From Naegleria gruberi (taxonomy: Eukaryota): a stretch of 64,000 bases of DNA. The position numbers and the translations under genes were made by a program. Below, piece by piece: positions 19,984 through 45,741 of this stretch. Where the stretch lies: the NCBI GenBank assembly GCA_000004985.1, contig GG738860.1; one strand, 5' to 3'. The notes beneath the pieces are model-generated. The model was not told the DNA's origin. It made no database searches and saw nothing but the letters and a program-made list of their open reading frames with translations. How positions within the stretch are numbered: the first letter of the stretch is position 1; every line of letters starts with the position of its first letter.

Positions 19984-21318
19984 ATGACCCAAAACTCATC
20001 AACACCAACATCACCAATTCTCGGTTCGTCATCGTTTGATGACAACAAATCGGAGGCAAGTTCCACACCTTATGAACCATCCCCAGAGTTATTTAAAAAG
20101 CCAACAAAAACAATCATACAAACATCTGATGATGATTATGACTTTGAAGAAGAGAACGATAATAATAAGAAAGAAGAATCTTCTGATGACGATTCAGCTA
20201 ACAAATACGAAGAAGAAAGAAAAAAGAAAATAGAAAGAAACAAAATGTTACTTGCTAATTTAGGCCTTGGTAATGGTTTATTACCAAAGAATAATAACTC
20301 TACCACAACAAAGAAATCAAGAAGGTCAACCGGAAGTGAAAGTGGTGAACCAACAGAAGTCAGAAGATCTTCCAGACTTTCGTCTAAACCAAAACCAGTC
20401 TACAACTATAGAGAACTTGAAAAGGTAGAAAAAGAATCTAGAAGAGTCATTGCACAAGAGAAAAAGCTAAAGAAGGAAGAACAAAGATTAAAATACTTTT
20501 CAAAGAGAACACTGAGGAAACATCGTGGTGAAGAGGAAGAAAGTGCTGAAGAAACTGATGAAGACACTTACGTTTCCGAATATAATGAAAATAATAAGAG
20601 AAGAAGCTCAAGAAATAAGAAGAAGATTGATTATGCAGGTTTGGAACATGGAGACTCAGAAAGTGAAGGTGAATTTGAAGAATTTGACCAGGTGACAGTA
20701 GTAGTGGAAGAATCTCCAAAAAAGAAAAAGAAAGTCACCAAAAAGAGTACGATTGCTTCTCCAGTATGCTCTTTTTCAAATTTTACAATATCAGATGAAC
20801 ATGCTGTTAGCTACACTGAAATTGGTGGAACAGTTGCTGAGACACCAAGCGATGAGAATATCACTCATGTCGTTACAAAGGTCTACAAGAGAACTCTCAA
20901 ACTCATGTGTGGAATAATTAGAGGAGCTTACATAGTGTCGGAAGATTGGCTCCTGGATTCTTTAGAAAATGGATATTTTGTTGATGAGAAACCATATCTC
21001 ATTAAGGCTGATGGTGTGAGTCTATTACAAGCAAGAAAACGTGCCTTAGCCCAACCAATATTTGCAGATCTCAAATTCTTTATTTGTGATGATGTACAAG
21101 CTCGTGATATTGTAACACAAATCATTGAAACAGGTTCAGGGTCGATTATCACTGCCATTGATGAAATGTTGGAAGAGGACTATGATTTTGAGAATTGCTA
21201 TATTATATACGAAGAGGAAGAGACAAAAGACAAGTATCCAACACTACCAAACGAAGTTTTCAGGACAAAGGAATTTATCTTCACAGCTGCTGTGTCCCAA
21301 AAAATAGAAGATGTGTAG
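19984..21318 (+). CDS. BRCT domain-containing protein with an acidic/Lys-rich disordered N-terminal half
   Basis: The C-terminal region ...MCGIIRGAYIVSEDWLLDSLENGYFVDEKPYLI...FADLKFFICDDVQARDIVTQIIETGSGSII... fits the BRCT fold consensus (conserved W and the C/hydrophobic core). Confidence 0.55.
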   Translation: MTQNSSTPTSPILGSSSFDDNKSEASSTPYEPSPELFKKPTKTIIQTSDDDYDFEEENDNNKKEESSDDDSANKYEEERKKKIERNKMLLANLGLGNGLLPKNNNSTTTKKSRRSTGSESGEPTEVRRSSRLSSKPKPVYNYRELEKVEKESRRVIAQEKKLKKEEQRLKYFSKRTLRKHRGEEEESAEETDEDTYVSEYNENNKRRSSRNKKKIDYAGLEHGDSESEGEFEEFDQVTVVVEESPKKKKKVTKKSTIASPVCSFSNFTISDEHAVSYTEIGGTVAETPSDENITHVVTKVYKRTLKLMCGIIRGAYIVSEDWLLDSLENGYFVDEKPYLIKADGVSLLQARKRALAQPIFADLKFFICDDVQARDIVTQIIETGSGSIITAIDEMLEEDYDFENCYIIYEEEETKDKYPTLPNEVFRTKEFIFTAAVSQKIEDV

Positions 21319-21354: not shown

Positions 21355-23484
21355 ATGTCTCGTTTATTTCCTCTGGTTTTGTTATTGGTTTTAGCCATTC
21401 AGCAGATTTATTGCTTTAGAATCATACCTCTCACCACTACATCACCATGTACTGAAATGCAAAAGGAAAGAGTCATTCTCTCCACAGATAGCATGATAGC
21501 ATTTTGTGTTAACAAACAAGGCTCTGAGTGTTCCACTATTAAATACCTGAATGGAAGAAAAGTGATGGTACACAGAGACCTCTCCGATTTGTTTCAATTT
21601 CAACTCGATAGGTACAATGAAATTCATCAGGAAACAATTATACCAATAGTGACACTTGTAACCTCAATCTATGTTGATGCCTTCTTTGGTCATCCAGCAC
21701 TTAATTTTGACAGTTTTGTTGTTCCTTTAAGTACACTCCAAGATGTTCTTCTTCGAATGCCCTCTTTGGAGAATAGTGAAAGACTACTTTTGTGGAGTGA
21801 CCTTAATTTCATTGATGAAATGAGCATGCCTATTCAAGTGGGCACTCTCAATGAAACTAGCAAGTTTGCACTAATTGAAGACACAATTTCTACTGAGTAT
21901 TTTGGGCCTCTTCTTGAAAAATCAAAAAGAAAAACCACAATTGGATATAGAACCTTCAATGAGTTGATACTTTCCAATAGATTTGGACTTGGAAAATTAG
22001 ATTTACTGAAACAAACATTTATCAAAAGATTATTCAATGGTTGTGATTTGAAAATTGAGGAAGTGGAAACGAGCAATTTCACAATTATCAAACAATTTGA
22101 ATCTGTGAAGAATCTCAGTATGAACAATTTAATTGACTTGAATGTATTGTATTGCTTTGAAAAGTCAACTCTTTCATTCTATTCATGCAATGACGGTGTA
22201 CCAGGTACAGTGATTGCCTATGAAATTGAGAAACTTCTCCAGATTACATTTGGATGTCTTCAGCTGTTACTATTGGCAGCAACATTTAACACCAAGTCAA
22301 TCAAGCGCAGACTTTTAGTACCTTATTTGATTCCTCTTTGTTTGATTGTGGCTAGTATATTCTTCTCGATTTTCATGCAACAAGTTTCCAATACATTGAG
22401 GTCTATAGTAACCATTGGAATTACTGCTTTTGTAATTGGGATTTATGGTTCCACTCTTGTTAGATTCTACTATTTAAGGTATTTGTATCGATTTCTTAGC
22501 AATTCAACTGATAAGCAAGTGAAAATTCACAGAATTTTGAGTTCTGAATGGTTTGGGGTTTTGGCAACATTAGTATGCGCCATTCTTCATGTACTCTTTT
22601 GGTTGGCAATCCTCATACCCTATGCAGTTGTTAATGTCTACGAAAGCAATGTATTATTTGGAGTGAATGTCATTTACCTACTGCAAGGAATCATTGGATG
22701 CATTTTGGGTATTGTTTTCATGAGTATTGATATTTTTAACAATCGAAAACTAATTAAGGAAAAGGGACTATTACACTTTTTCACATTTGAAGATCCTTAC
22801 TTCTTGAGATTGGACATCATTAGTTTTTTCATTATCCTTACAAGCCTAATTTTGATTATAATTTTCAACTTGATAGGTCAGGAATGGGCAGATTATTGTT
22901 TGGGCATATGTTCATTCATATCTTTTATTTTCATTTACTGTCTTGGAGGAATGACAGCCATCCTGATTGAATGCTGGAAATTCCTCAAAAGAAAGAGGCG
23001 GCCAATAGAATCTACCTCTCAAAAAATTCAAACAGATATTGAACTACATTTAAAGGATCAACACTTTGTTGAACTATTTAAAAGTTTCTGTGAAAAGGAA
23101 TTTTCACTGGAGAACTTTCTCCTTTACGAACACATTTCTCAACTAAGGACGAGTACTCTCTCTTCTTCAGATAATAGAAGCACCAATTCCATGAACTCAT
23201 CCTCACTAGATCGTTACATCTCAGCGGAGCAATTCTATCAGTTGTGGACTTTATTCTTCAAGCCATTAGCCAAGTATGAAGTTAATCTTCCAGGAAAAGT
23301 CAAGAAACAAATCGAAATAATTTACCACTCAAGAGATGGAACCCCACTAGAAACATTTGAGAATATCGTCCTGACCGAATTGTTATTCAATCTCAAAGAT
23401 ACCTATAGTCGACTTGTAGAGACGAGTGAATTTTCGAGATGGCAATTGGTAAATACCATTCAAACTCAACAGAATATCAAATAA
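21355..23484 (+). CDS. Seven-transmembrane receptor with a C-terminal RGS domain (7TM-RGS fusion) and a ~290-aa extracellular N-terminal domain with signal peptide
   Basis: The signal peptide is MSRLFPLVLLLVLAIQQIYC. Seven hydrophobic helices lie between residues ~290 and 540. The RGS box is QHFVELFKSFCEKEFSLENFLLYEHISQLR...QFYQLWTLFFKPLAKYEVNLPGKVKKQIE. Confidence 0.7.
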   Translation: MSRLFPLVLLLVLAIQQIYCFRIIPLTTTSPCTEMQKERVILSTDSMIAFCVNKQGSECSTIKYLNGRKVMVHRDLSDLFQFQLDRYNEIHQETIIPIVTLVTSIYVDAFFGHPALNFDSFVVPLSTLQDVLLRMPSLENSERLLLWSDLNFIDEMSMPIQVGTLNETSKFALIEDTISTEYFGPLLEKSKRKTTIGYRTFNELILSNRFGLGKLDLLKQTFIKRLFNGCDLKIEEVETSNFTIIKQFESVKNLSMNNLIDLNVLYCFEKSTLSFYSCNDGVPGTVIAYEIEKLLQITFGCLQLLLLAATFNTKSIKRRLLVPYLIPLCLIVASIFFSIFMQQVSNTLRSIVTIGITAFVIGIYGSTLVRFYYLRYLYRFLSNSTDKQVKIHRILSSEWFGVLATLVCAILHVLFWLAILIPYAVVNVYESNVLFGVNVIYLLQGIIGCILGIVFMSIDIFNNRKLIKEKGLLHFFTFEDPYFLRLDIISFFIILTSLILIIIFNLIGQEWADYCLGICSFISFIFIYCLGGMTAILIECWKFLKRKRRPIESTSQKIQTDIELHLKDQHFVELFKSFCEKEFSLENFLLYEHISQLRTSTLSSSDNRSTNSMNSSSLDRYISAEQFYQLWTLFFKPLAKYEVNLPGKVKKQIEIIYHSRDGTPLETFENIVLTELLFNLKDTYSRLVETSEFSRWQLVNTIQTQQNIK

Positions 23485-23572: not shown

Positions 23573-24700
23573 ATGAGCGATAAAGAATCCACACCAAGTC
23601 CATCACCATTATCATCAAATAATTCTCCACCTGTTGCCACAACAACTACCACAACAACAACATTACCAAGTGGTCCTAAACAAGATAATACCAAGAGTTT
23701 TCTTGTCCAATCATCACCACTTGTTTCCTTCATATCGGGAGCAGTTTATGGATGTACCTCCATTGCTGTAGGACAACCTCTCGATACAATTAAAACACTC
23801 ATGCAATCTAGTGCTACTATTAATCAAAATAATGCAACAACATTGGGTGTGATTAAATCAATTTATAAGAAGAATGGTTTTATGGGATTTTATCGTGGAT
23901 CTCTTCCACCTTTGTTTACTGCTTCAGTGTTGAGAAGTTTGCAATTTGGTGGATATGCAATGGCATTACAATATATTATGGAAAATAATGTGTTTTCTGA
24001 TAAGGATTTCAGAAAGGAAAATTTACATGTTTTGGAGGAGAAACCATTTAGTTTGCATCCTGAAATGTTTGCTGCTGGCTGTTTTGGAGGTGCTGCTAGA
24101 GCCATTGTTGGTATGTTTCAATTTTCATGGTCATGTGTTTATTAATAATATTCGAATTATTTCCAAAACATTTTAATAGAAACCCCTGTCGAATATATGA
24201 AAGTCAGATTCCAAACTGAACAACCTTGGAAATTTACTGAATTATATCGTGGATTTACTGCAACACTGTTACGTAACATGTTCCTTTTGGGCAGTTTCTT
24301 TGTTTTTGTTGACTTTTTCACTCAAGAATATAGAAATTTACAAGTGAGACAACATTTGAAATCTCTTGCATCTGATGAAGAAAGAGAAAAGAGCAGAGGT
24401 CAATATTTCGATTTTGCAAAATTGAGTCCATTCTTTACAGGTGGTGTTTGTGCAACTTTGGCTTGGTGGTTAGTTTTCCCATTGGATGTTATTAAGAGTC
24501 AAATTCAAGCTATGAAACCTGATGAACAATTGGGCCTTATGCAAAGAATGAAACATGTTTCAAACACTTTGGGCTTCAGAGGATTTTTCAGAGGAATTGT
24601 ACCTGCTAGTGCTAGATCCATGTTGGCAAATGGTGTTTCAATGATTGCCTTTGCTTATGTTTCATCTCATCTCATTCAAAAATTGGAAAAGAAGGAATAA
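23573..24700 (+). CDS. Mitochondrial carrier (SLC25) family protein, 2 exons (23573-24110, 24180-24700)
   Basis: Three carrier signatures PxD/ExxK/R are present: QPLDTIKTLMQ, TPVEYMKVRFQ and FPLDVIKSQIQ. The intron has a GTATGT donor and a ttttaatag acceptor. Confidence 0.8.
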
Positions 24701-24737: not shown

Positions 24738-27700
24738 TTACTGTTTGAGTTTCTTTTGAGCTGGCTGTTGTTCAAGTGTTTGCTGACAAGTACTGGAAGA
24801 ACGTTTTGTAATCTTTTGCCATTTTCTTGAAACATGATCCATGCAAAAGTATATTGTTACAATTTCATCATTGAGCTCTTCTGAGTGAATTACATATTGT
24901 TCCTGGCAGTTTCGATTTTCTCCCATGAAAAATGTAAATATCTGTTTTCTTGTTTCCTGTGTGATTTGATTGCATCCCCTTAATAAATTATCCAGATAGT
25001 TGTTGACACGAGAATAATTTTCAGTATAATCATTTGTTAATACCAATTGAGGAGGTTGATAGGTTGAAAGTGAGGCTTGTTGTAAAGTTATTTGTTGCTG
25101 AAGTGAGTTAAGATATTTCAATACCTTTTGAACGTGAGATAAATTCTTCTTTAGTTCATTTTGAGGAGAGCTAATCTTGGTGATGGTTATTTTTCTATAT
25201 TCCTTTCTAATATCAAGGAAAGAAGGGTTACAGAGCTTTTCAATATTCGAAATAACATGATCTCTCTGACCTTGTGTGTTTCTCATTTCAAAAGTTACTC
25301 TATTGGGATCTAACAAGTAGGTTCTCACAGACTCACAGGTGCTACACGGACTAGAACCGACAAACATTCCAGAATTCCTACAATTTGATTTTAAAGGTTC
25401 TATTTTCCAACTCCATGGCAACTGTTGGATATTTTGAATGTGAGTCGATACTATTCCTAATGCACCAGTTATGAGTAATGATAAAGAAGACCCATTCAAT
25501 AGAGAAGCTCTAAAATTACTAGTTTCCAACCATTTAAGTAGTGGAATGAGCACAGATTCCACTCTATCAAATGTGTCGCATCTATTCAATATACTTGAGA
25601 CTATTATGTTAAAATTATCAGGAATACACTCTCTACAAAACATGTATATAAATGAAATGCACATATTTGATGTTAGCTGTGGTTGAGAGGTAAATTCCAT
25701 CCAAATTGAATTTCTCAAAATATCATATGCATATTTGCATTCCTCATTTGTGAAATTGTTTTCACAATAGGTTGCAATGACCATAGCTTGCTCATAAAAC
25801 TTGTTGGTGAGCTCAGGAAGGCACACTTGCATCTTTTCTTGTAATAATTGCTTATTCACTTTTGAGGAGTTCTCAAAGAATATTCCATAACAATTAGTAA
25901 AACACGAAATATTATCCAATAATGATAGTAAAACATCTTCCAAATGTAGAGTATTGTGCAGTGAACAATAAGGAAGTAATAATTGAAAAACTGTCGCATC
26001 TGCCCTTTTCAAAATTGCTGAAATGGCATTTTCTGTGAATGGCATTTGTCTTTCAATCATGTATCTCAAAATGGTGTGAAGATAAGTATTAGGGAGGTGT
26101 TGAGTGGCCAATCTTTCAAAAATCTTATCAAAGAACTCTTTGATAAAAACATTTCCATTAACATCCTTGGAGAATTCATTGATAACAAACTGAACGTGGT
26201 CTATTCTGTCCTGTATTGTAGACTGGAACGCTTTTTGGACGAACTTTTCAATAAATTGATCCTTCAATTGGTTCATTGGGAAGATTCCAACAATGGCACT
26301 CCAACCAAAATCAGATAAACTTGGATGAGCATCAAGATAACATTTCAAAACCTCATAATTTCGAAGTTGAATTATATTCCTAACCATTAAATCTTCTGAA
26401 AGCTTATTTGCACATTTAGGTATAAATTGCAAAAGTTGAGTGAGTGCATTAGGTTTCAGACTTGTTGCTTCCATAAATAATTGTTGGCAAATGTAATCCA
26501 CATCCTGGGTGTGAGCGTAATTGTTGAAGAGGGATGTAGCAAACCTCCTAGAAACAATAACTATGCATCCGTTTCTATACCACTTATCTAAATTGGTTCC
26601 CTCATTACCTGTGTGCTCAATTCGAGAATTTGCAAAGTGTTGATCCTCGAGTCTTTCGTATGGAATTATATTAGAAAGCATCATATTTGATGGCAAACTG
26701 GAAAATGAAGACCCACTAGTTGTTTTCACATTTTTCAAGTTATATCGAACAGTTGGTTCACATATTAGATCACTTCTGACCTCTATTTCTGTCTCAGAAT
26801 CAGAACCACAATCATCACCATCTCCATAATAATCATAGTGATCTCCATCCAATTGTCCACTAACTTCTTTTTCAAATATTCCAATAAATAAATGGAATAA
26901 TAAATGTTCTTGATTGAGTTCAGATAAGAATGTGTACAGCATTTGATCTTTCCCTTTCAGATTCGAAGCTGATAAACCTTCCATAGTATATTTGTGTTCT
27001 AGTAACCAAACAATGAAGGGAGGTTCGGTTTTTTCCCATCTTTCAGATAGGTTTATGAATGATTTCTCCAATTTACTCCTCATATTAAATGAGGGGATGG
27101 AATCCAAAGCCCCATTATAACAAACATTATAAATTAGACATAATCTGTATCCACTCGAAACTCTATTCACCTTATGTTCACAATCACAGAAAAATCCAGT
27201 GTATGAAACCTTATAACTTGAATTCTTTGAAAAATCATAGATTTTTTCATTCCCAGAATGTTTTACAATTAGCTCTCCACCAGAATACACTGAAGGAAGA
27301 TGAATTACCAAAGTTGCAAACATACCACTCTCCTTCTCTGTATCTCTGTGATAATCAAAGTGTCCATCAGTTTCATAGAGAAGCAGTTTGTAAAGACTAT
27401 GAGTAATTCGTTTGTGTTTTGGAATACCAAGTCCATTTCGTAACTCATTTTCAACAATATTTCCCACAAAACCATTCCATTTAGGATTAGAAATAATGAA
27501 TTGGGATGGCTCAAGTTGCCAACTTTTTCTCACAGTTTCATCAATAAGTGTCAGCTCTCCCTTCCCATAAGGTGCCTTTGATGCCACTGAAATGATGTCT
27601 TGAGCTTGATTTAAATTAGTAATAGGGAGAGAGCAATGTTTCAATTCAACAGTTGCTCCACTTTCATTGGATGGTACACAAATTTGTAATCCAGGAAGTC

Positions 27701-28154
27701 CTGGAATATTCTCAACTTCGCCTCCACATGAAAATTCTCCAACACATACATCTGTTTCTGAGCTAGTCAATAAATCAGCCATTTCCTTTGTTGTTTCTGA
27801 ATATCCAATAACCAACTCATCAGGAAGTATCAATGAGTGGCGTTGATATGGTATCGTGAACATAATTGGACTTGTGGGTTTAGGCCTATGAGAATTATCA
27901 AACACAAATGATGACTCAAAAGATTCAGACATTATATTCGGAAGAGGAAATTCCATTGGTTTGAGGGTAATCAGGTTGAAGGTGTTCGTAGATGATGACC
28001 CCTGACTATTATGACTAATTAAATTGTTCAATAATTGTGATGTTGAGAGAATGTCATTGGTACTACTACCAATAGTACTACTAATACCATCACCAGAATT
28101 AATGGTAGTTATATTAGGAGTAGTGGTATTTCCGAGTAGGTTATTAAATTGCAT
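24738..28154 (-). CDS. Large (1138 aa) protein with an N-terminal 2OG-Fe(II) oxygenase (P4H-like double-stranded beta-helix) region and a ~750-aa helical C-terminal region of unknown function
   Basis: ...SLYKLLLYETDGHFDYHRDTEKESGMFATLVIHLPSVYSGGELIV...YTGFFCDCEHKVNRVSSGYRLCLIY matches the HxD...H iron triad and the basic 2OG-binding residue of 2OG oxygenases. The rest is unrecognised. Confidence 0.5.
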   Translation of the reverse strand: MQFNNLLGNTTTPNITTINSGDGISSTIGSSTNDILSTSQLLNNLISHNSQGSSSTNTFNLITLKPMEFPLPNIMSESFESSFVFDNSHRPKPTSPIMFTIPYQRHSLILPDELVIGYSETTKEMADLLTSSETDVCVGEFSCGGEVENIPGLPGLQICVPSNESGATVELKHCSLPITNLNQAQDIISVASKAPYGKGELTLIDETVRKSWQLEPSQFIISNPKWNGFVGNIVENELRNGLGIPKHKRITHSLYKLLLYETDGHFDYHRDTEKESGMFATLVIHLPSVYSGGELIVKHSGNEKIYDFSKNSSYKVSYTGFFCDCEHKVNRVSSGYRLCLIYNVCYNGALDSIPSFNMRSKLEKSFINLSERWEKTEPPFIVWLLEHKYTMEGLSASNLKGKDQMLYTFLSELNQEHLLFHLFIGIFEKEVSGQLDGDHYDYYGDGDDCGSDSETEIEVRSDLICEPTVRYNLKNVKTTSGSSFSSLPSNMMLSNIIPYERLEDQHFANSRIEHTGNEGTNLDKWYRNGCIVIVSRRFATSLFNNYAHTQDVDYICQQLFMEATSLKPNALTQLLQFIPKCANKLSEDLMVRNIIQLRNYEVLKCYLDAHPSLSDFGWSAIVGIFPMNQLKDQFIEKFVQKAFQSTIQDRIDHVQFVINEFSKDVNGNVFIKEFFDKIFERLATQHLPNTYLHTILRYMIERQMPFTENAISAILKRADATVFQLLLPYCSLHNTLHLEDVLLSLLDNISCFTNCYGIFFENSSKVNKQLLQEKMQVCLPELTNKFYEQAMVIATYCENNFTNEECKYAYDILRNSIWMEFTSQPQLTSNMCISFIYMFCRECIPDNFNIIVSSILNRCDTFDRVESVLIPLLKWLETSNFRASLLNGSSLSLLITGALGIVSTHIQNIQQLPWSWKIEPLKSNCRNSGMFVGSSPCSTCESVRTYLLDPNRVTFEMRNTQGQRDHVISNIEKLCNPSFLDIRKEYRKITITKISSPQNELKKNLSHVQKVLKYLNSLQQQITLQQASLSTYQPPQLVLTNDYTENYSRVNNYLDNLLRGCNQITQETRKQIFTFFMGENRNCQEQYVIHSEELNDEIVTIYFCMDHVSRKWQKITKRSSSTCQQTLEQQPAQKKLKQ

Positions 28155-29339: not shown

Positions 29340-31556
29340 TTATCTTCTTGGTGTTAAATCACTTAGAGCACGAGCAACAAGTGAATTTCTATTTTTACCA
29401 TAAAGAGGATGGTTTTTCATGAGTAGTAATTGTTCCAAACGTTTCACTATCGTTTCAGCCTCTATGGTTGTCCTAGCTTCATAAAATAGGTTCTCATCAT
29501 CGAATGACAAAACAAAACACTTTGGATTAGTTGAATCACATTCAATTGAACGTAAAGTGGTAATTGGTCTTGTTGGGTGTTTTGTTTTAGATGAATTCAT
29601 CCAACGAGAAGTATTGGCTGGCTTTGAATTATAAATAAATTCTGAATCAAAACTGAGAATTCTCTCTTGTCTGACTCCAAACTTATTTGTCTTGGTAACA
29701 TGGAAAACGTTATCAGTATTATCATAAGTCATGAATGGAAGGGCGTATATTTGTTTTGAAGGTGACCCAATCATATTGGGAGCGGTTGGAGATCCAGATA
29801 TTTCACCTTTAGGTGTTGATTGATCTGTATCAGACTCGTATGCTGCTGTTCTTACAAGAACAACTCTTTCAATCATTGATCCTAAAGAATAAAGTGTCTT
29901 GTCTTTGTAATTTTTGCTAATTTCTTTCAGATTCTTGTCTTTTCCAATAGTATTGATCATGTATTTTTTAGGATCCAAAGAAAAACGTTGACAAAGTACT
30001 TTCTGTAAATCTTTGAGTAATAATTCTGGAGATACTGGAACAAGTTTGAAATAAGTGAGTTGGTAATTTCTGGAATTAATTGGGGATGTGAATGAATTGG
30101 TATTTGGAATGATGGTTGGTGTAGAACATGAATTTTTTGGTGGTGGAAGGAAAACTTGAAGTCTAATATCTTCTAAATTGAATTTTGTAAAAACTTCATC
30201 TCCTCCAAACTTGATATTTAACTCTCTCCTATTTTTAAGATTGGAAGATGAATCATCTTCAGCTCCACTATTTCCACTGGACATTGGTTGAAAATTCCTA
30301 TCAAGTACAAGTGTTAATTTTACATTACCCAACTGTTCAATCATTGTCTTTTCCTTGTTGAGTGGAGGCCAACTTGTATCAGGTTGACCATCTTCTTCTG
30401 CAACTCGTAATTGATAAGCTCTATCGTCAATAGCAATAGGTTCTAGATCAGTTTCTCTTTTATACAGTTCCAGTGCTTTACGAATCAAATCTGTGGCAGT
30501 AAAGTTTAGAGATGTCATTGAACTCACAGTTGGAATGGGCACATTAACTTTGTGAACACCTCCTCGTTTGTGTGGCACAAATGTAGCAATATATCGAACA
30601 GATTGATTTGCTTGTTTAAAATTACTTGAATTATCATGTAAAAGACTACCTCCAATAGCAGGATTTCTTCTTGGTCTCAAATCCATCGACAAGGATGAAT
30701 CTACTGTCGTTTTTGTTGGTATCATCTTGTTAACACCACCAAGTGTAACTTTTTGAAAGATGGAATCTTGTACAGGTGGGTTGACTGGTTGTTGATTTGA
30801 AGAAGTATTTGATTGTTCTACCTGTCTTGTATCTTGCTCGGGTGTTATTGGATTATTTTCCTCTTCACTAACACCATCATCACCTTGATCTCCATTATTT
30901 CTTCTTGGTGTTGTTGTGCCATTGCGAGGAGTTGTTGCTCCTCTTGGTGTTGTTACATTGCCTCGAGGAGTTGTGTTACTTGATGAATTCATTGCTGGCA
31001 TGTTTTGAAGAGGAAGTTGGAGATTAAATTTACCAGGTGATGCAACACCATTCTGTTTTTGTTGTTGTTCTACATGTCTTTTGTGTTCAATAAATAATAA
31101 TTCATAATCTTTTAGATCAAAAGTATCGGGTGGTGTAAATGATGTTGATAATCCTGTATTTCTATTATATCCTCCTTGTTGTTGGGCGCCATATGGATCA
31201 TGATCTGCTCCTGTTGTTGTACTGGAGAAACTTCTTGTTCGAAAGTGTCCAGGATTATTTGAAGATGCTGATCGTTGAATGAGAGGTTGATTGGCTCCAT
31301 TTGTATTGGTTCTTACGAGAGGAAATTGTGCTCCATTTCTTGGTGGTGGTTGAGGAGGTTGAAAAGATGGATTTGTTGTTGTTGATGTAGATTGTATTTT
31401 GAAGGAAGAACTCGTTGATTTTAAAGTACTATTCATCAAACTGTTACCATTACTCACTCCACCCGAAGAGTTATTGTTCAGTAACATTTGATCGTGTATT
31501 CGAGGAAGTGTTGTCCTCTTTGTCTCCTTGAAGTTTGGCTTTTTAAAGTGGAGCAT
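29340..31556 (-). CDS. SIN1: SIN1/Avo1-family TORC2 subunit homolog: low-complexity N-terminus, CRIM domain, Ras-binding-like domain, C-terminal PH domain
   Basis: The CRIM signature is ...YQLRVAEEDGQPDTSWPPLNKEKTMIEQLG (compare YELRIAEDDGEvDtDFPpLd). It is followed by a ubiquitin-fold segment and a C-terminal PH-like module (...FHVTKTNKFGVRQERILSFDSEFIY...CFVLSFDDENLFYEARTTIEAETIVKRLEQL). Confidence 0.65.
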   Translation of the reverse strand: MLHFKKPNFKETKRTTLPRIHDQMLLNNNSSGGVSNGNSLMNSTLKSTSSSFKIQSTSTTTNPSFQPPQPPPRNGAQFPLVRTNTNGANQPLIQRSASSNNPGHFRTRSFSSTTTGADHDPYGAQQQGGYNRNTGLSTSFTPPDTFDLKDYELLFIEHKRHVEQQQKQNGVASPGKFNLQLPLQNMPAMNSSSNTTPRGNVTTPRGATTPRNGTTTPRRNNGDQGDDGVSEEENNPITPEQDTRQVEQSNTSSNQQPVNPPVQDSIFQKVTLGGVNKMIPTKTTVDSSLSMDLRPRRNPAIGGSLLHDNSSNFKQANQSVRYIATFVPHKRGGVHKVNVPIPTVSSMTSLNFTATDLIRKALELYKRETDLEPIAIDDRAYQLRVAEEDGQPDTSWPPLNKEKTMIEQLGNVKLTLVLDRNFQPMSSGNSGAEDDSSSNLKNRRELNIKFGGDEVFTKFNLEDIRLQVFLPPPKNSCSTPTIIPNTNSFTSPINSRNYQLTYFKLVPVSPELLLKDLQKVLCQRFSLDPKKYMINTIGKDKNLKEISKNYKDKTLYSLGSMIERVVLVRTAAYESDTDQSTPKGEISGSPTAPNMIGSPSKQIYALPFMTYDNTDNVFHVTKTNKFGVRQERILSFDSEFIYNSKPANTSRWMNSSKTKHPTRPITTLRSIECDSTNPKCFVLSFDDENLFYEARTTIEAETIVKRLEQLLLMKNHPLYGKNRNSLVARALSDLTPRR

Positions 31557-41967: not shown

Positions 41968-43029
41968 TTACAATAATTTCAAATGTTTTGTAACAGTATC
42001 AATTAATTCTACAGGAGCTGGACCAATTCCAAGTACTGTTTTCGATCCAGCTTCAATTTGAGTTCTTCCAGCATCAACAACAAGATAACAATTCAAACGT
42101 TGTTGTAAACATTTTTGAAATAAATTATCCAATTCCTTATCACTATCTGCTTTAAGACAAATCTTAGCTTCAGCTGTTACTTCCCAGTCATGTAAATATT
42201 GTTTCCATTGTTGCATATCTTGGTTGGTGATTTGTGTTGGCTCTGAATTTGATGATGAAAATAATAATTGAGTTTGAGCAAAATAGGAGGTGTTTTCATA
42301 GAGAATATTTCTATAGAGACCGACAGCTGCATGACAACATTGAGCAGCAATCTTTCCTTTACCCATATTCAAATCATTTCTAACAACAAATACCATCTTG
42401 TAAGCCTTTGATGTCGGGAATGATTTCATCAAATATTCTTGATATTTTTGATNNNNNNNNNNNNNNNNNNNNNNNNNNNNNNNNNNNNNNNNNNNNNNNN
42501 NNNNNNNNNNNNNNNNNNNNNNNNNNNNNNNNNNNNNNNNNNNNNNNNNNNNNNNNNNNNNNNNNNNNNNNNNNNNNNNNNNNNNNNNNNNNNNNNNNNN
42601 NNNNNNNNNNNNNNNNNNNNNNNNNNNNNNNNNNNNNNNNNNNNNNNNNNNNNNNNNNNNNNNNNNNNNNNNNNNNNNNNNNNNNNNNNNNNNNNNNNNN
42701 NNNNNNNNNNNNNNNNNNNNNNNNNNNNNNNNNNNNNNNNNNNNNNNNNNNNNNNNNNNNNNNNNNNNNNNNNNNNNNNNNNNNNNNNNNNNNNNNNNNN
42801 NNNNNNNNNNNNNNNNNNNNNNNNNNNNNNNNNNNNNNNNNNNNNNNNNNNNNNNNNNNNNNNNNNNNNNNNNNNNNNNNNNNNNNNNNNNNNNNNNNNN
42901 NNNNNNNNNNNNNNNNNNNNNNNNNNNNNNNNNNNNNNNNNNNTGTGTTCTTGTGATGACATTTTTTAATGAGTTGGAATTATTTTGAAAATAATCACAT
43001 GAGGAATAAATTGCAGAATTGAACATCAA
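41968..43029 (-). CDS. PTH2: Peptidyl-tRNA hydrolase 2 (PTH2). The 5' part of the gene is interrupted by the 490-N assembly gap (42454-42943), so the N-terminus and the start are unreliable
   Basis: The C-terminal catalytic domain is KMVFVVRNDLNMGKGKIAAQCCHAAVG...CYLVVDAGRTQIEAGSKTVLGIGPAPVELIDTVTKHLKLL, a PTH2 signature. Confidence 0.8.
   Translation of the reverse strand: MMFNSAIYSSCDYFQNNSNSLKNVITRTXXXXXXXXXXXXXXXXXXXXXXXXXXXXXXXXXXXXXXXXXXXXXXXXXXXXXXXXXXXXXXXXXXXXXXXXXXXXXXXXXXXXXXXXXXXXXXXXXXXXXXXXXXXXXXXXXXXXXXXXXXXXXXXXXXXXXXXXXXXXXXXXXXXXXXXXXXXXXXXXXXXXXQKYQEYLMKSFPTSKAYKMVFVVRNDLNMGKGKIAAQCCHAAVGLYRNILYENTSYFAQTQLLFSSSNSEPTQITNQDMQQWKQYLHDWEVTAEAKICLKADSDKELDNLFQKCLQQRLNCYLVVDAGRTQIEAGSKTVLGIGPAPVELIDTVTKHLKLL
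42454..42943. other. Assembly gap (490 N) inside the PTH2 gene. The poly-X ORFs in this region are artefacts
   Basis: Run of N in the sequence. Confidence 1.
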
Positions 43030-43290
43030 TCTCGAGCCAATAAATTCACAAACAATTAAGAACTCTCCAATTAGACTTTAGATAGTTAAGGGATTGTTGA
43101 CGGAAGAGAATTTCATGTTTTATAGTTAGTATTTATAGAAATTAATAACAATAATAATTTGTACTTCACAACAGGAAAGTTGAAGAAACAATAATTTTCA
43201 AGTGGAAACTTTACAATTTCTTTCATCAAGAGGATTATCCAATCAATCAATTATTGAAATAAAAAAAAATTCAAATCACCCAGATCTTCT

Positions 43291-45741
43291 TTGAACATGG
43301 CCAGAACCAAGCAAACAGCGAGAAAATCGACGGGTGGCAAAGCTCCAAGAAAACAATTGGCTTACAAAGCTAGAAAAGCAAACAGACCTTTCCCTTCCCG
43401 TTCGTTGGCAGGTCCTTTTTCTGATGAGGAAAAAGCAATTTTTGTGAATGGTTTGAAAAGAGCCTTCGATGGAAGTGAAGAATCATCAAAATTTGATGTA
43501 AATACCTATGAAGGAGCTTCACAATTAGTCAAATTTTGGATTTTCCAAGATCAAAAAAGAAGAAAATTGAAACCAATGGTAGAGGAAGCTAAATGGAATG
43601 GCAGCTTTGAATTGCTTCACAATCTTCCTATGGATATCAAGTATGAAATTATTGATTTTATTCCAACCTTTTCCTTGAGAGATTTTTACAAAATCAAGTT
43701 AGACGAATTCACTGAACAGATGAAGCTGGCACAAGTTGAAGATATTTCTAAAATTGTATGCAAAGGACTGAATTTGTTTGAAACCTTTACAAAGAGATCT
43801 TTTCAAAATTTGTACTATTCAGATCCTCTCTATAGAAACTATTACAAGAAGAGACTAATTAACAGAGAATATGCATTAAGAATGAAACAAAGGATATTGA
43901 AGTTGGATGAGTTTGATATTACAGATATTGATTATGATATTGGTTCTGTAAAGAAAGACAAACTATTGCACTTCTTTTCGTTGGTTAAGGAGATGAATGA
44001 AATTGACACTGTTGACTTTAATGATGTGGTCATTCACAGAAATATTGAAAAAATCAAGTCATTGGTAAATGGAACCACCACAAAAAGAAATGAAGATGAT
44101 TACGAGTCACCTTGTGAAGAACCAATGGATGATACTGATTCAATTAGTAATGAGCCTAATGTAACTGTATCATTTGATGAAATGGAGCTACTTTCTGAGG
44201 AAGAAATGAAAAAGTTAGAATCAAAATCTATTGCCATACTGCAGGAATCAGAAAGAGGATATTATAATACTCGTAATTACAATAAGTTTAACAAGCAAGA
44301 TAGTAAATCTTTTAGAAAGCAAGCGATGTATTCGTATGCTATACCATTGGAACTAATAGGAACTGGTGCTATTCCACAAGAACAAAATTTTACTCGTGCC
44401 TTTTCTCACGAAGAGATTATGGAAAGGCTTAAGGAGTTTATTGGAATTAATTCATCCATTAAGAAACTTTCTGTCAGAGGTCTAGATGTCGGCTTTACAA
44501 ACACTGCCATGGACATCTGTAAAGGAATAACAGATCTTTCAATACTTTTATGTGAGTACGTGGATTATTTTGAGTGCTTTAAAGAAGTCCTACCAAATCT
44601 CAACAAGCTGACTATTAATGGAGTTTCTTCTCATTACTCAATTAGTTTTATGGAAAGCTTTATGATTGAGGAATATATTCAACCTAACTGTGTTGTTGAT
44701 TTAGGGTTTGCTACAGGCACTGACACATATTTCTCGGATTTTTTAAATCGTTATGTTGAAGATCAAAACGGTAACAAGACTCCATTGAAAATTACCTCAA
44801 AACTACTCTCAACTGAAAACGTAACCGAATATGCCGACTTTTTATTGAGGTTTATAGAAGGAGTATCTTTCGGCCAATTGTTTTCTGATTTTGATATGAA
44901 AAAGAAATTGGTAGATTACTTGGTAATTGAAGTTGGCATTCCAATTGAATGGCTTACGCTTACCACAAGTGGAGATACTATAATTACAGAATACTTAGCT
45001 TATCTTTCAAATGTTTATCAAAATGGGGCAATTAATTGTCCAAGCTCTATTATGTTACGAGCAGGCTTGATTCCAAATAATATAGCCAATGAATTGGTTT
45101 TTTCTAAATATGAATGGGATGTTGTTGAGTTATGTTTAGATTATTTAAAAAAGAGAGATGATATTGATGACTTTGTTTTGACCCTTAGAAATTTGCTCGT
45201 TTTCTATGTGTGTGATAGAAGTGATTCTCCACTCTTTGAACTATATTGTTACATTAAGAAGAATATTCCAGAAAGTCAATTCAAAGAAATTTTAAAGCCT
45301 ATCAAATGTATCATTCCAGAAGGCTACAAAGAAAAGAACAATGAAACCTTGCATACAGTTTCTATTCCCATCATTTGCTTCCCATTCTCAAATTACCAAT
45401 TCGCTAAAGCTATCGTGGATGATATGACAGACGAAGATTTGAAATTTGTTAATGAGCTTGGTGACTCATGTCTGCACATTTATTCTAGACATGACCATAG
45501 TATTTGGAGTAGAATAGTTGAAAGAGTACCAGAGGTAGTCAAACTCAGCAACCCTGAGGGAGTAACACCTTTACATATTCATACTACCAATATCCAGTCA
45601 TACATATTTGTATTAGACTTGTTGACAAGATTTGGTGCTGACCCAAATGCAAAAGATATTGAAGGAAGAAAAGCTATTGGTGAATTTTTTATATTTGAGA
45701 ATGGTATTTTGAAAGTTAACAACAGATCAATGGAATATTAG
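43291..45741 (+). CDS. F-box-like / ankyrin-repeat protein (816 aa) whose N-terminus mimics the histone H3 tail
   Basis: Residues 3-29 are [27 protein letters not shown], against H3 [28 protein letters not shown]. The F-box-like motif is [21 protein letters not shown]. The C-terminal ankyrin repeats include ...[11 protein letters not shown]...[20 protein letters not shown]. It is a single uninterrupted ORF. Confidence 0.75.
   Translation: [816 protein letters not shown]

What the first reader, a model, noticed from the sequence alone, without database searches (positions are those of the whole stretch)
21355..23484. 7TM-RGS fusion receptor with a large signal-peptide-bearing ectodomain
A signal peptide, a ~270-aa extracellular region, seven TM helices and a cytosolic RGS box lie in one ORF. 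This resembles plant AtRGS1 and fungal class-VI GPCRs: a self-contained receptor that stimulates GTPase activity and would negatively regulate G-alpha on ligand binding. The ectodomain is unrecognised and may be the ligand-binding part.
Basis: seen in the sequence. Interest (0 to 1): 0.5.

Follow-up and report, generated by a model that had tools for sequence, protein, structure and literature searches.

The report
Naegleria 7TM-RGS receptor with flytrap ectodomain
This is an intact Naegleria gruberi gene for a membrane receptor that carries its own G-protein "off switch" (an RGS domain), a receptor type already described in Naegleria; what this analysis adds is that its outer part probably folds like a bacterial solute-binding "flytrap" protein.

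Summary
Window 21355..23484 (+) is one uninterrupted 709-codon ORF. It encodes a signal-peptide-like N-terminus, a ~270-aa ectodomain, exactly seven hydrophobic helices with N-out/C-in charge bias, and a C-terminal RGS domain. The RGS domain passes the Pfam threshold, and RGS4's G-alpha-contact residues are conserved.

The DNA is Naegleria gruberi; the deposited "predicted protein" (663 aa) starts at M47 and so lacks the signal peptide. An exhaustive profile search finds about 210 relatives, and every one I looked up with a 7TM match is from Naegleria, Willaertia or an unnamed environmental source. Some relatives carry GPS or EGF ectodomains. This is therefore the "7TM RGS" family that Bosch et al. 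2022 described in N. fowleri, where three isolated RGS domains had GAP activity. The architecture is known, not new.

Best reading: a solute-sensing flytrap coupled through 7TM to a G-alpha GAP. The ligand and the direction of regulation are unknown. The 7TM part has no detectable similarity to any Pfam GPCR family or solved structure.

The parts
21355..23484 (+). Complete intronless gene for a 709-aa 7TM-RGS protein (stop codon TAA at 23482-23484)
   Evidence: Residues 47-709 are identical to the N. gruberi 'predicted protein' P0001.
21355..21414 (+). Signal-peptide-like leader, residues 1-20 (MSRLFPLVLLLVLAIQQIYC). It is missing from the deposited gene model, which starts at M47 (nt 21493).
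   Evidence: Hydropathy peak of 2.01. Homologues P0002, P0004, P0005 and P0007 all have hydrophobic leaders. M47 lies inside a strand-like segment that aligns with the homologues and is modelled as a strand.
21415..22224 (+). Ectodomain, residues 21-290. Sequons at N166, N241 and N253.
   Evidence: Among the 150 best representatives, only 9 share this ectodomain: N. gruberi, N. fowleri, Willaertia magna and one environmental sequence.
21475..21849 (+). Confidently modelled core of the ectodomain, residues 41-165, resembling a lobe of a type II periplasmic binding protein. It includes the motifs 'YLNGRKVMV' and 'NFDSFVVP'.
22153..22188 (+). Juxtamembrane conserved Cys pair, C267...C278 (CFEKSTLSFYSC), a presumed extracellular disulfide
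   Evidence: Both Cys are conserved in every ectodomain homologue that covers the region. The disulfide itself is inferred.
22231..22974 (+). Seven-helix membrane domain, residues 293-540. TM1 22231-22290, TM2 22312-22380, TM3 22402-22464, TM4 22546-22614, TM5 22654-22728, TM6 22804-22872, TM7 22900-22974.
   Evidence: No Pfam GPCR family and no solved structure matches it by sequence.
22729..22818 (+). Third cytoplasmic loop and the start of TM6, residues 459-488. It holds the family-wide motif N-R-K-x-I-K-x-K-G-x3-F-L-F-F-D-D-P-F-x-x-R-x-D-L (here DIFNNRKLIKEKGLLHFFTFEDPYFLRLDI).
   Evidence: The cytoplasmic loops are the most conserved parts of the protein: top-residue frequency 0.66/0.52/0.64, against 0.30/0.30/0.18 for the outer loops.
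23017..23475 (+). Cytoplasmic RGS domain, residues ~555-707. The Pfam match covers 566-655 (nt 23050-23319). Contact-residue equivalents are S584, E586, N587, N644, D682, T683 and R686.
23152..23214 (+). Ser/Asn-rich insert inside the RGS domain, residues ~600-620 (STLSSSDNRSTNSMNSSSLD)
   Evidence: Insert states in the alignment to the family profile and to RGS4. It is shorter or absent in the paralogue.

Best explanation
The gene encodes a member of the Naegleria/Willaertia '7TM RGS' family, a plasma-membrane receptor whose output is a GTPase-activating (RGS) domain rather than nucleotide exchange.

Proposed working, with the status of each step:
1. The leader directs the N-terminus out of the cell (inferred from sequence).
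2. The ~270-aa ectodomain folds as a diverged type II periplasmic-binding-protein / Venus-flytrap-like module, tied to the membrane by a Cys-pair stalk (fold predicted; ligand unknown).
3. Ligand-dependent closure or rearrangement is passed through the seven-helix bundle to the strongly conserved cytoplasmic loops (inferred).
4. The C-terminal RGS domain keeps all the core G-alpha-contact residues. It speeds GTP hydrolysis on Naegleria G-alpha subunits, some of which self-activate (shown for three N. fowleri family members, not for this protein).
5. The stimulus changes how much GAP activity reaches G-alpha. The direction, and whether it acts by conformation, phosphorylation or endocytosis, is unknown.
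For: The architecture is confirmed.

Family membership: the exhaustive profile search gives 210 representatives at E<=1e-3 and 43 at E<=1e-30, matching across 7TM plus RGS. All 7TM-matching hits I looked up are from N. gruberi, N. fowleri, N. lovaniensis, Willaertia magna or unnamed environmental sequences. RGS passes Pfam in 34 of 49 and 13 of 24 members scanned. Other members carry GPS, EGF or NHL ectodomains, as Bosch et al. 2022 describe for the 28 N. fowleri 7TM RGS proteins, three of whose RGS domains showed GAP activity and G-alpha binding (PMC9283941).

RGS competence: S584/E586/N587/N644 align with RGS4 S85/E87/N88/N128. D682/T683/R686 align with the D-S-x-x-R of RGS10 and RGS4. E582, S584, E586, N587, N644, N679, D682, T683 and R686 are invariant in 21 family members.

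Against: No experiment bears on this protein. The query ectodomain has no Pfam hit and its profile has no significant PDB sequence hit.

The signal peptide was judged by eye and by hydropathy. The deposited gene model starts at M47, and only 36 nt separate the ATG from the stop codon of the upstream gene.

The 7TM domain cannot be tied to any GPCR class. The full-length AF2 model is unusable (pLDDT 37).
Confidence: 0.75

Rival explanations
1. It is a 7TM-RGS protein, but the ectodomain is not a ligand-gated flytrap. It is either a degenerate single-lobe remnant or a generic alpha/beta domain, serving for adhesion, oligomerisation or folding. GAP activity is then constitutive or controlled from the inside.
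Against: Foldseek alignments to whole PBPs span 200-245 columns (GshT, PqqT). The hit lists hold almost nothing except PBP-II folds. Homologues P0002, P0005 and P0007 have longer N-terminal parts that could complete lobe 1.
Confidence: 0.25
2. The 7TM domain is itself a working GPCR (an exchange factor for G-alpha), and the fused RGS domain is a built-in terminator that sharpens the signal. It would then be more than a pure receptor-GAP.
For: The cytoplasmic loops ICL1-3 are the most conserved parts of the family, more so than the RGS domain (0.66/0.52/0.64 against 0.41). This is what one expects of a G-protein docking surface. Naegleria has both slow- and fast-exchanging G-alpha subunits, and both types interact functionally with 7TM RGS proteins (PMC9283941).
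Against: There is no similarity to any GPCR family or solved receptor. Conserved loops could equally dock the RGS domain, kinases or endocytic adaptors. No GEF activity has been reported for any 7TM RGS protein in the papers read.
Confidence: 0.12
3. The RGS domain is a non-catalytic RGS-homology scaffold, like those of GRKs, axin or the RhoGEFs, so the protein does not act as a GAP.
For: The Pfam match is weak and covers only profile positions 6-78 of 117. A ~20-aa Ser/Asn-rich insert interrupts the domain. The paralogue P0002 gets no Pfam hit at E<=0.001. De Mendoza et al. note that some RGS domains have lost GAP activity (PMC3971589).
Against: All core contact residues of RGS4 are kept and are invariant across the family. 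The family profile aligns over the whole domain with R4- and RZ-type GAP-active RGS proteins. Three family members are GAPs in vitro (PMC9283941).
Confidence: 0.08
4. The deposited 663-aa model (start at M47) is correct. There would be no signal peptide, and the N-terminal domain's location would then be uncertain.
For: The database model starts at M47. Only 36 nt lie between the upstream gene's stop codon (21318) and the ATG at 21355.
Against: The ORF is open from 21355 and encodes a textbook leader. M47 falls in the middle of a segment that aligns with homologues and is modelled as a strand. All full-length homologues with this ectodomain have leaders. The loop charge bias requires the N-terminus to be outside.
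Confidence: 0.1

Closest known systems
Naegleria fowleri 7TM RGS proteins (28 genes; Nf 7TM RGS1-4 studied; Bosch, Jeck & Siderovski 2022, PMC9283941)
   Same: Same protein family. It shares the 7TM domain with the KRRLxxPY, YLRNLY and FLFFDDPF loop motifs, and the C-terminal RGS domain with KEFSLEN, YEVN and DTxxRL. Other members found here carry GPS and EGF, as that paper describes.
   Different: That paper reports EGF, lectin and GPS ectodomains. This protein and eight other representatives instead have a PBP-II-like ectodomain, which the papers I could read do not mention. GAP activity has not been tested for this protein or its subfamily.
Arabidopsis AtRGS1 (plant 7TM-RGS)
   Same: Seven TM helices followed by a cytoplasmic RGS domain. 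It acts as a GAP on a self-activating G-alpha and is thought to be modulated by an extracellular cue, glucose (as summarised in PMC9283941).
   Different: From my own knowledge, AtRGS1 has only a short extracellular N-terminus and no flytrap domain. No plant protein was among the hits I identified, and the 7TM similarity was not tested directly because I had no AtRGS1 sequence. The resemblance is architectural, and I cannot say whether the two share descent.
Fungal 7TM-RGS receptors (class VI GPCRs such as GprK; the multi-TM RGS proteins of Basidiobolus found here)
   Same: Multi-TM N-terminal half with a C-terminal RGS domain. Basidiobolus P0128, P0130 and P0147 match the RGS part at E about 1e-5 to 1e-7 and have 3 to 7 hydrophobic segments, 7 in P0130.
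   Different: The match is limited to the RGS domain (profile positions ~620-750). They have no large ectodomain. GprK itself was not compared.
Class C GPCRs (mGluR, CaSR, GABA-B: flytrap + 7TM) and the GPR158-RGS7 complex
   Same: Same logic: an extracellular clamshell binding module joined to a seven-helix bundle. GPR158 shows that a 7TM protein can signal by positioning an RGS protein (PMC8611064 abstract).
   Different: No 7tm_3, ANF_receptor or cysteine-rich-domain match. From general knowledge, class C flytraps are PBP type I, whereas this one resembles type II. The output here is a covalently fused GAP.
Type II periplasmic binding protein sensors: amino-acid SBPs (GlnBP, ArgBP, GshT), the iGluR/GluR0 ligand-binding core, and the BvgS/EvgS sensor-kinase flytraps
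   Same: These are the best structural matches to the ectodomain model. The 'L-x-G-K/R-K-[IV]-x-[IV]' strand motif and the later 'D-x-F-[IV]' strand fall in the expected order. Like BvgS and iGluRs, the module sits on a membrane signalling protein rather than on a transporter.
   Different: Sequence identity is 5-16%. Only one lobe is modelled with confidence. Ligand-contact residues could not be mapped. The partner domain (7TM-RGS) is unlike any of theirs.

Membership tests
RGS domain (Pfam PF00615) | Score above Pfam's gathering threshold | tested here: met
   28.5 bits against a cut-off of 23.9, E=2.2e-6, residues 566-655. The family profile hits 35 solved RGS domains, best E=1.4e-9.
RGS domain (Pfam PF00615) | Complete nine-helix RGS box, including the C-terminal half (alpha7-alpha9) | tested here: inconclusive
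   Pfam covers only profile positions 6-78 of 117. The family profile does align to RGS10 residues 11-135 and RGS7 over the whole domain. The only full-length model has helices at the right places but pLDDT 37.
RGS domain (Pfam PF00615) | G-alpha contact residues of GAP-active RGS proteins (RGS4 S85, E87, N88, N128, D163, S164, R167; the list is from my memory of the RGS4-Gi-alpha1 structure) | tested here: met
   S584, E586, N587 and N644 by alignment with RGS4. D682, T683 and R686 by the RGS10 alignment. All are invariant in 21 family members.
RGS domain (Pfam PF00615) | GAP activity on a G-alpha subunit | not testable with these tools
   Shown in vitro for three N. fowleri family members only (PMC9283941).
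Naegleria 7TM RGS family | Seven TM helices, N-terminus outside, RGS at the cytoplasmic C-terminus | tested here: met
   Hydropathy of the protein and of 49 aligned members, loop K+R counts of 4/1/5/0/4/0/7, and AF2 helices. No dedicated topology predictor was available.
Naegleria 7TM RGS family | Sequence homology across the 7TM domain and RGS domain to other family members | tested here: met
   43 representatives at E<=1e-30, matching profile positions ~300-768. The named ones are from Naegleria or Willaertia. Some carry GPS or EGF, as published.
AtRGS1-type plant 7TM-RGS | Homology of the 7TM domain to AtRGS1 | not tested
   No AtRGS1 sequence was available to compare. None of the 30 hits whose source I looked up was from a plant.
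AtRGS1-type plant 7TM-RGS | Ligand-induced phosphorylation and endocytosis that uncouples the GAP from G-alpha | not testable with these tools
   A Ser-rich insert (residues 600-620) exists, but nothing links it to phosphorylation.
Type II periplasmic binding protein / flytrap fold | Match to a PBP-II sequence family | tested here: inconclusive
   The query has no hit. Homologue P0007 hits NMT1 at 22.3 bits against a cut-off of 20.5, and two of nine ectodomains hit NMT1 with best E=3.5e-5. The profile has no PDB hit. hhalign to GlnH gives E=0.037 over 23 columns.
Type II periplasmic binding protein / flytrap fold | Predicted structure superposes on PBP-II structures in preference to other folds | tested here: met
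Type II periplasmic binding protein / flytrap fold | Two lobes joined by a hinge, with a ligand cleft lined by conserved residues | tested here: inconclusive
   Only residues 41-165 are confident, and three stretches fall below pLDDT 50.
Class C GPCR | 7tm_3 membrane domain, ANF_receptor flytrap, cysteine-rich linker | tested here: not met
   No such Pfam hit in the query or in 49 + 24 family members.
Adhesion GPCR-like | GAIN/GPS autoproteolysis motif before TM1, 7tm_2 membrane domain | tested here: not met
   The query has no GPS or 7tm_2 hit. GPS is present in 3 of 24 longer family members. The query has only a conserved Cys pair before TM1.

The most novel reading that the evidence does not exclude
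A small subfamily of heterolobosean receptors (three genes in N. gruberi, three in Willaertia, and fragmentary models in N. fowleri) joins a type II periplasmic-binding-protein flytrap to a 7TM-RGS core. It would be a 'class-C-like' receptor whose output is GTPase acceleration rather than nucleotide exchange, gated by a small solute such as an amino acid, an anion or a vitamin precursor. That would be an independent invention of flytrap-to-7TM coupling. It would also be the first 7TM-RGS receptor with a tractable, soluble ligand-binding domain.
Probability: 0.35. Interest if true: 0.6.

Novelty: new member of a known kind. Interest (0 to 1): 0.33.

Why it matters
How 7TM-RGS receptors sense anything is still open. 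AtRGS1 has almost no ectodomain, and the ligands of the Naegleria proteins are unknown; Bosch et al. 2022 say so explicitly.

A family member with a soluble, flytrap-like ectodomain would give a direct handle. The ectodomain could be expressed alone and screened for ligands, and one could then ask whether ligand raises or lowers GAP output.

The work also corrects a gene model: the deposited protein lacks its signal peptide. Beyond that, this is an ordinary member of a published, lineage-specific family. The N. fowleri relatives are of some interest as drug targets.

Tried and rejected
1. All three word-indexed homologue searches (single sequence, 2-sequence profile, 49-sequence profile) returned only the protein itself and one paralogue. 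The candidate list was probably swamped by low-complexity words. The exhaustive HMMER search was needed.
2. Full-length AF2 on 2 sequences gave pLDDT 37, unusable except for helix positions. I did not use it for a fold search.
3. The afdb50 fold library was unavailable, so eukaryotic structural neighbours of the ectodomain were not surveyed.
4. The profile of the 7TM region against PDB sequences gave nothing. Pfam on 73 family members gave no GPCR family. The 7TM class is unassigned.
5. The profile of the ectodomain against PDB sequences gave only a chance-level hit to a BLOC-1-related subunit, E=0.086. I rejected it.
I treat this as no more than a hint.
7. tblastn found no second copy of the gene in the window.
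8. Weak Pfam hits to DUF2517 and a phage holin inside the TM helices were rejected as hydrophobic noise.
9. Anantharaman et al. 2011 (Gene 475:63), the paper most likely to have catalogued such architectures, is not in the library. Prior description of a PBP-7TM-RGS architecture cannot be excluded.
Full report
**The observation**

Window 21355..23484 on the + strand is a single open reading frame of 709 codons, from ATG to TAA. In DNA of about 35% G+C, an open frame this long is not a chance event. My estimate is about 1e-20, from roughly 7% stop codons per random codon.

The product has four parts:
- **Leader.** MSR + LFPLVLLLVLAI + QQIYC, with a Kyte-Doolittle peak of 2.01.
- **Hydrophilic stretch.** About 270 residues with three N-glycosylation sequons and six cysteines.
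- **Seven hydrophobic segments.** Residues 293-312, 320-342, 350-370, 398-420, 434-458, 484-506 and 516-540.
- **C-terminal region.** It matches Pfam RGS (PF00615) at 28.5 bits against a cut-off of 23.9, E=2.2e-6.

Lys+Arg counts in the successive loops are 4, 1, 5, 0, 4, 0, 7. This is the alternation expected if the N-terminal domain is outside and the RGS domain is in the cytosol. A weak hydrophobic peak at residues 93-113 lies in the confidently modelled core of the ectodomain and is not an eighth helix. I had no dedicated topology or signal-peptide predictor, so I used three other lines of evidence:
- Hydropathy averaged over 49 aligned relatives gives one leader and exactly seven segments.
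- In the alignment of 17 relatives, most gaps fall in the loops.
- An otherwise poor AlphaFold model has seven long helices at the same positions.

**Origin and gene model**

Residues 47-709 are 100% identical to a "predicted protein" of Naegleria gruberi (663 aa, Pfam RGS precomputed). The deposited model starts at M47 and therefore lacks the leader. I think the longer model is right, for four reasons:
- The frame is open from 21355.
- M47 sits inside a segment that aligns with homologues and is modelled as a beta-strand.
- Every full-length homologue with this ectodomain starts with a hydrophobic leader.
- The loop charge bias puts the N-terminus outside.

The caveat is that only 36 nt separate this ATG from the stop codon of the upstream BRCT-domain gene.

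**Family**

The word-indexed searches returned only the protein and one paralogue (31% identity over residues 65-708). The exhaustive HMMER search with the two-sequence profile found 210 representatives at E<=1e-3 and 43 at E<=1e-30. Most match across the 7TM region and the RGS domain.

All the 7TM-matching hits whose source I looked up are from N. gruberi, N. fowleri, N. lovaniensis, Willaertia magna or unnamed environmental sequences. The only named hits from elsewhere are fungal proteins that match the RGS part alone: Basidiobolus, which have 3 to 7 hydrophobic segments, and Syncephalis.

RGS passes Pfam in 34 of 49 and 13 of 24 members scanned. Longer members carry GPS, EGF or NHL modules. 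That is the picture Bosch, Jeck and Siderovski (2022, PMC9283941) give for N. fowleri: 28 "7TM RGS" proteins, some with GPS, EGF and lectin ectodomains. The isolated RGS domains of three of them bound several G-alpha subunits and sped up their GTP hydrolysis, including self-activating ones. De Mendoza et al. 2014 (PMC3971589) also record 7TM-RGS architectures in many bikonts, chytrids, filastereans and ichthyosporeans.

**The RGS domain**

A profile of the C-terminal region of 21 relatives hits 35 solved RGS domains, with best E=1.4e-9 for RGS17. Alignments to RGS10 and RGS7 run across almost the whole domain.

I aligned the query and RGS4 to the family profile. S584, E586, N587 and N644 fall on RGS4 S85, E87, N88 and N128. 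The RGS10 alignment places D682-T683-x-x-R686 on the D-S-x-x-R of helices 7-8. These residues are invariant in the 21 relatives. By sequence, then, the domain looks GAP-competent.

It carries a Ser/Asn-rich insert of about 20 residues (600-620) that is shorter or absent in the paralogue. This explains the partial Pfam match.

**The membrane domain**

No Pfam GPCR family matches the query or 73 relatives. A profile of the 7TM region finds no solved receptor. I cannot assign it to a GPCR class.

Its cytoplasmic loops are the most conserved parts of the whole protein. Top-residue frequencies are 0.66, 0.52 and 0.64 for ICL1-3, against 0.30, 0.30 and 0.18 for the outer loops and 0.41 for the RGS domain. 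The loops carry family-wide motifs: S-I-K-R-R-L-x-x-P-Y after TM1, R-x-x-Y-L-R-N-L-Y after TM3, and N-R-K-x-I-K-x-K-G-x3-F-L-F-F-D-D-P-F-x-x-R-x-D-L before TM6. Something conserved happens on the inner face. It could be docking of G-alpha, of the RGS domain, or of regulators; I cannot tell which.

**The ectodomain**

The ectodomain has no Pfam hit of its own. Among the 150 best representatives, only nine share it:
- three N. gruberi genes (this one, P0002, and a gene split into two adjacent deposited models);
- three Willaertia genes;
- one N. fowleri representative whose cluster holds two short protein sequences;
- one environmental sequence.

Reading the alignment, I noticed a "L-x-G-K/R-K-[IV]-x-[IV]" strand followed about 45 residues later by a "D-x-F-[IV]" strand. 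This is the spacing seen at the start of lobe 2 in type II periplasmic binding proteins. Three tests followed.

1. **Pfam.** NMT1/THI5, a PBP-II family, hits the equivalent stretch of Willaertia P0007 at 22.3 bits against a cut-off of 20.5. Two of the nine ectodomains hit it, with best E=3.5e-5.
2. **AlphaFold.** A model of residues 21-300 on the nine-sequence alignment reached pTM 0.71, with block-mean pLDDT of 78-96 for residues 41-165. Three later stretches fall below 50.
3. **Fold search.** Both searches of that model return almost nothing but PBP-II proteins.
   - Foldseek on the PDB: GshT at E=7.9e-4, then glutamine-, arginine- and glutamate-binding proteins, PqqT, Thi5 and SsuA.

The scores are modest, only one lobe is secure, and the profile finds no PBP by sequence in the PDB. 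I put about 0.75 on "PBP-II-like fold" and much less on "working two-lobed ligand clamp".

A Cys pair (C267...C278) just before TM1 is conserved in all homologues that cover the region. It is probably an extracellular disulfide (the disulfide is inferred).

**Mechanism**

Shown by sequence: the order of parts, the topology bias, and the conserved GAP interface. Shown by experiment in relatives only: GAP activity on Naegleria G-alpha subunits (PMC9283941). Inferred: the ectodomain binds a solute, the change passes through the helices to the conserved inner loops, and this alters how much GAP activity reaches G-alpha.

From my own knowledge of the AtRGS1 literature, its stimulus removes the GAP from G-alpha. 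[quoted passage not shown]

**Comparison and novelty**

This protein is a member of the published Naegleria 7TM RGS family; the membership tests for 7TM homology and the RGS domain are met. It is an architectural analogue of AtRGS1 and of fungal 7TM-RGS receptors, with homology shown only for the RGS domain. It is a functional analogue of class C GPCRs in having a flytrap on a 7TM bundle, but it fails every class C membership test.

The flytrap-like ectodomain is not mentioned in the papers I could search. The most relevant survey, Anantharaman et al. 2011, was not available. I rate the finding as a new member of a known kind, of moderate-to-low interest. There is a 0.35 chance that the flytrap reading makes it a useful entry point to the open question of what 7TM-RGS receptors sense.

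Noticed in passing
window 21355-21492 (gene start): The deposited N. gruberi protein for this gene (663 aa) starts at M47 (nt 21493) and omits 46 codons, including the signal-peptide-like leader. The longer ORF looks like the better model.
   Followed up: partly
window 23573-24700 (+), intron 24111-24179: The two downstream ORFs (23573..24145 and 24197..24700) each hit Pfam Mito_carr. A 69-nt GT...AG intron would join them in frame and restore a carrier signature (…IVETPVEYMKVRFQ…). They are therefore one mitochondrial carrier gene with one short intron, whereas the 7TM-RGS gene has none.
   Followed up: partly
window 22729-22818 (ICL3 of the 7TM-RGS protein) and the same region in relatives: The cytoplasmic loops, especially the motif NRKxIKxKGxxxFLFFDDPFxxRxDL before TM6, are more conserved across the Naegleria/Willaertia family than the RGS domain itself. 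The function of this motif is unknown.
   Followed up: partly
N. gruberi proteins P0109 (EFC37577, 208 aa) and P0152 (EFC37576, 500 aa), outside the window: Two adjacent deposited gene models (NAEGRDRAFT_74780 and 74779). The first holds the N-terminal half of the same flytrap-like ectodomain; the second appears to hold the rest of it plus the 7TM region and the RGS domain. They are probably one gene split by annotation. The N. fowleri members P0070 and P0151 are likewise ectodomain-only fragments.
   Followed up: no
window 19984-21318 (+): The upstream neighbour is a 444-aa acidic and basic low-complexity protein ending in tandem BRCT domains (BRCT_2 E=1.2e-11). Its stop codon is only 36 nt from the start of the 7TM-RGS gene.
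   Followed up: no
window 24738-28154 (-): A 1138-aa ORF with a weak, sub-threshold match to the 2OG-Fe(II) oxygenase superfamily (21.8 bits against a cut-off of 27). It is otherwise unrecognised.
   Followed up: no
window 29340-31556 (-): A 738-aa ORF with Sin1 PH and CRIM domain matches, a likely TORC2 subunit Sin1 homologue.
   Followed up: no
window 42001-44000: G+C drops to 0.24 here, against 0.31-0.39 elsewhere in the window. I did not examine this.
   Followed up: no
relatives P0128, P0130, P0147 (Basidiobolus) and P0145 (Syncephalis): The nearest RGS domains outside Heterolobosea among those I looked up belong to early-diverging fungi. The three Basidiobolus proteins also have 3 to 7 hydrophobic segments ahead of a C-terminal RGS domain (7 in P0130), while the Syncephalis protein has one. 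Whether this reflects common descent of a 7TM-RGS ancestor or convergence was not examined.
   Followed up: partly
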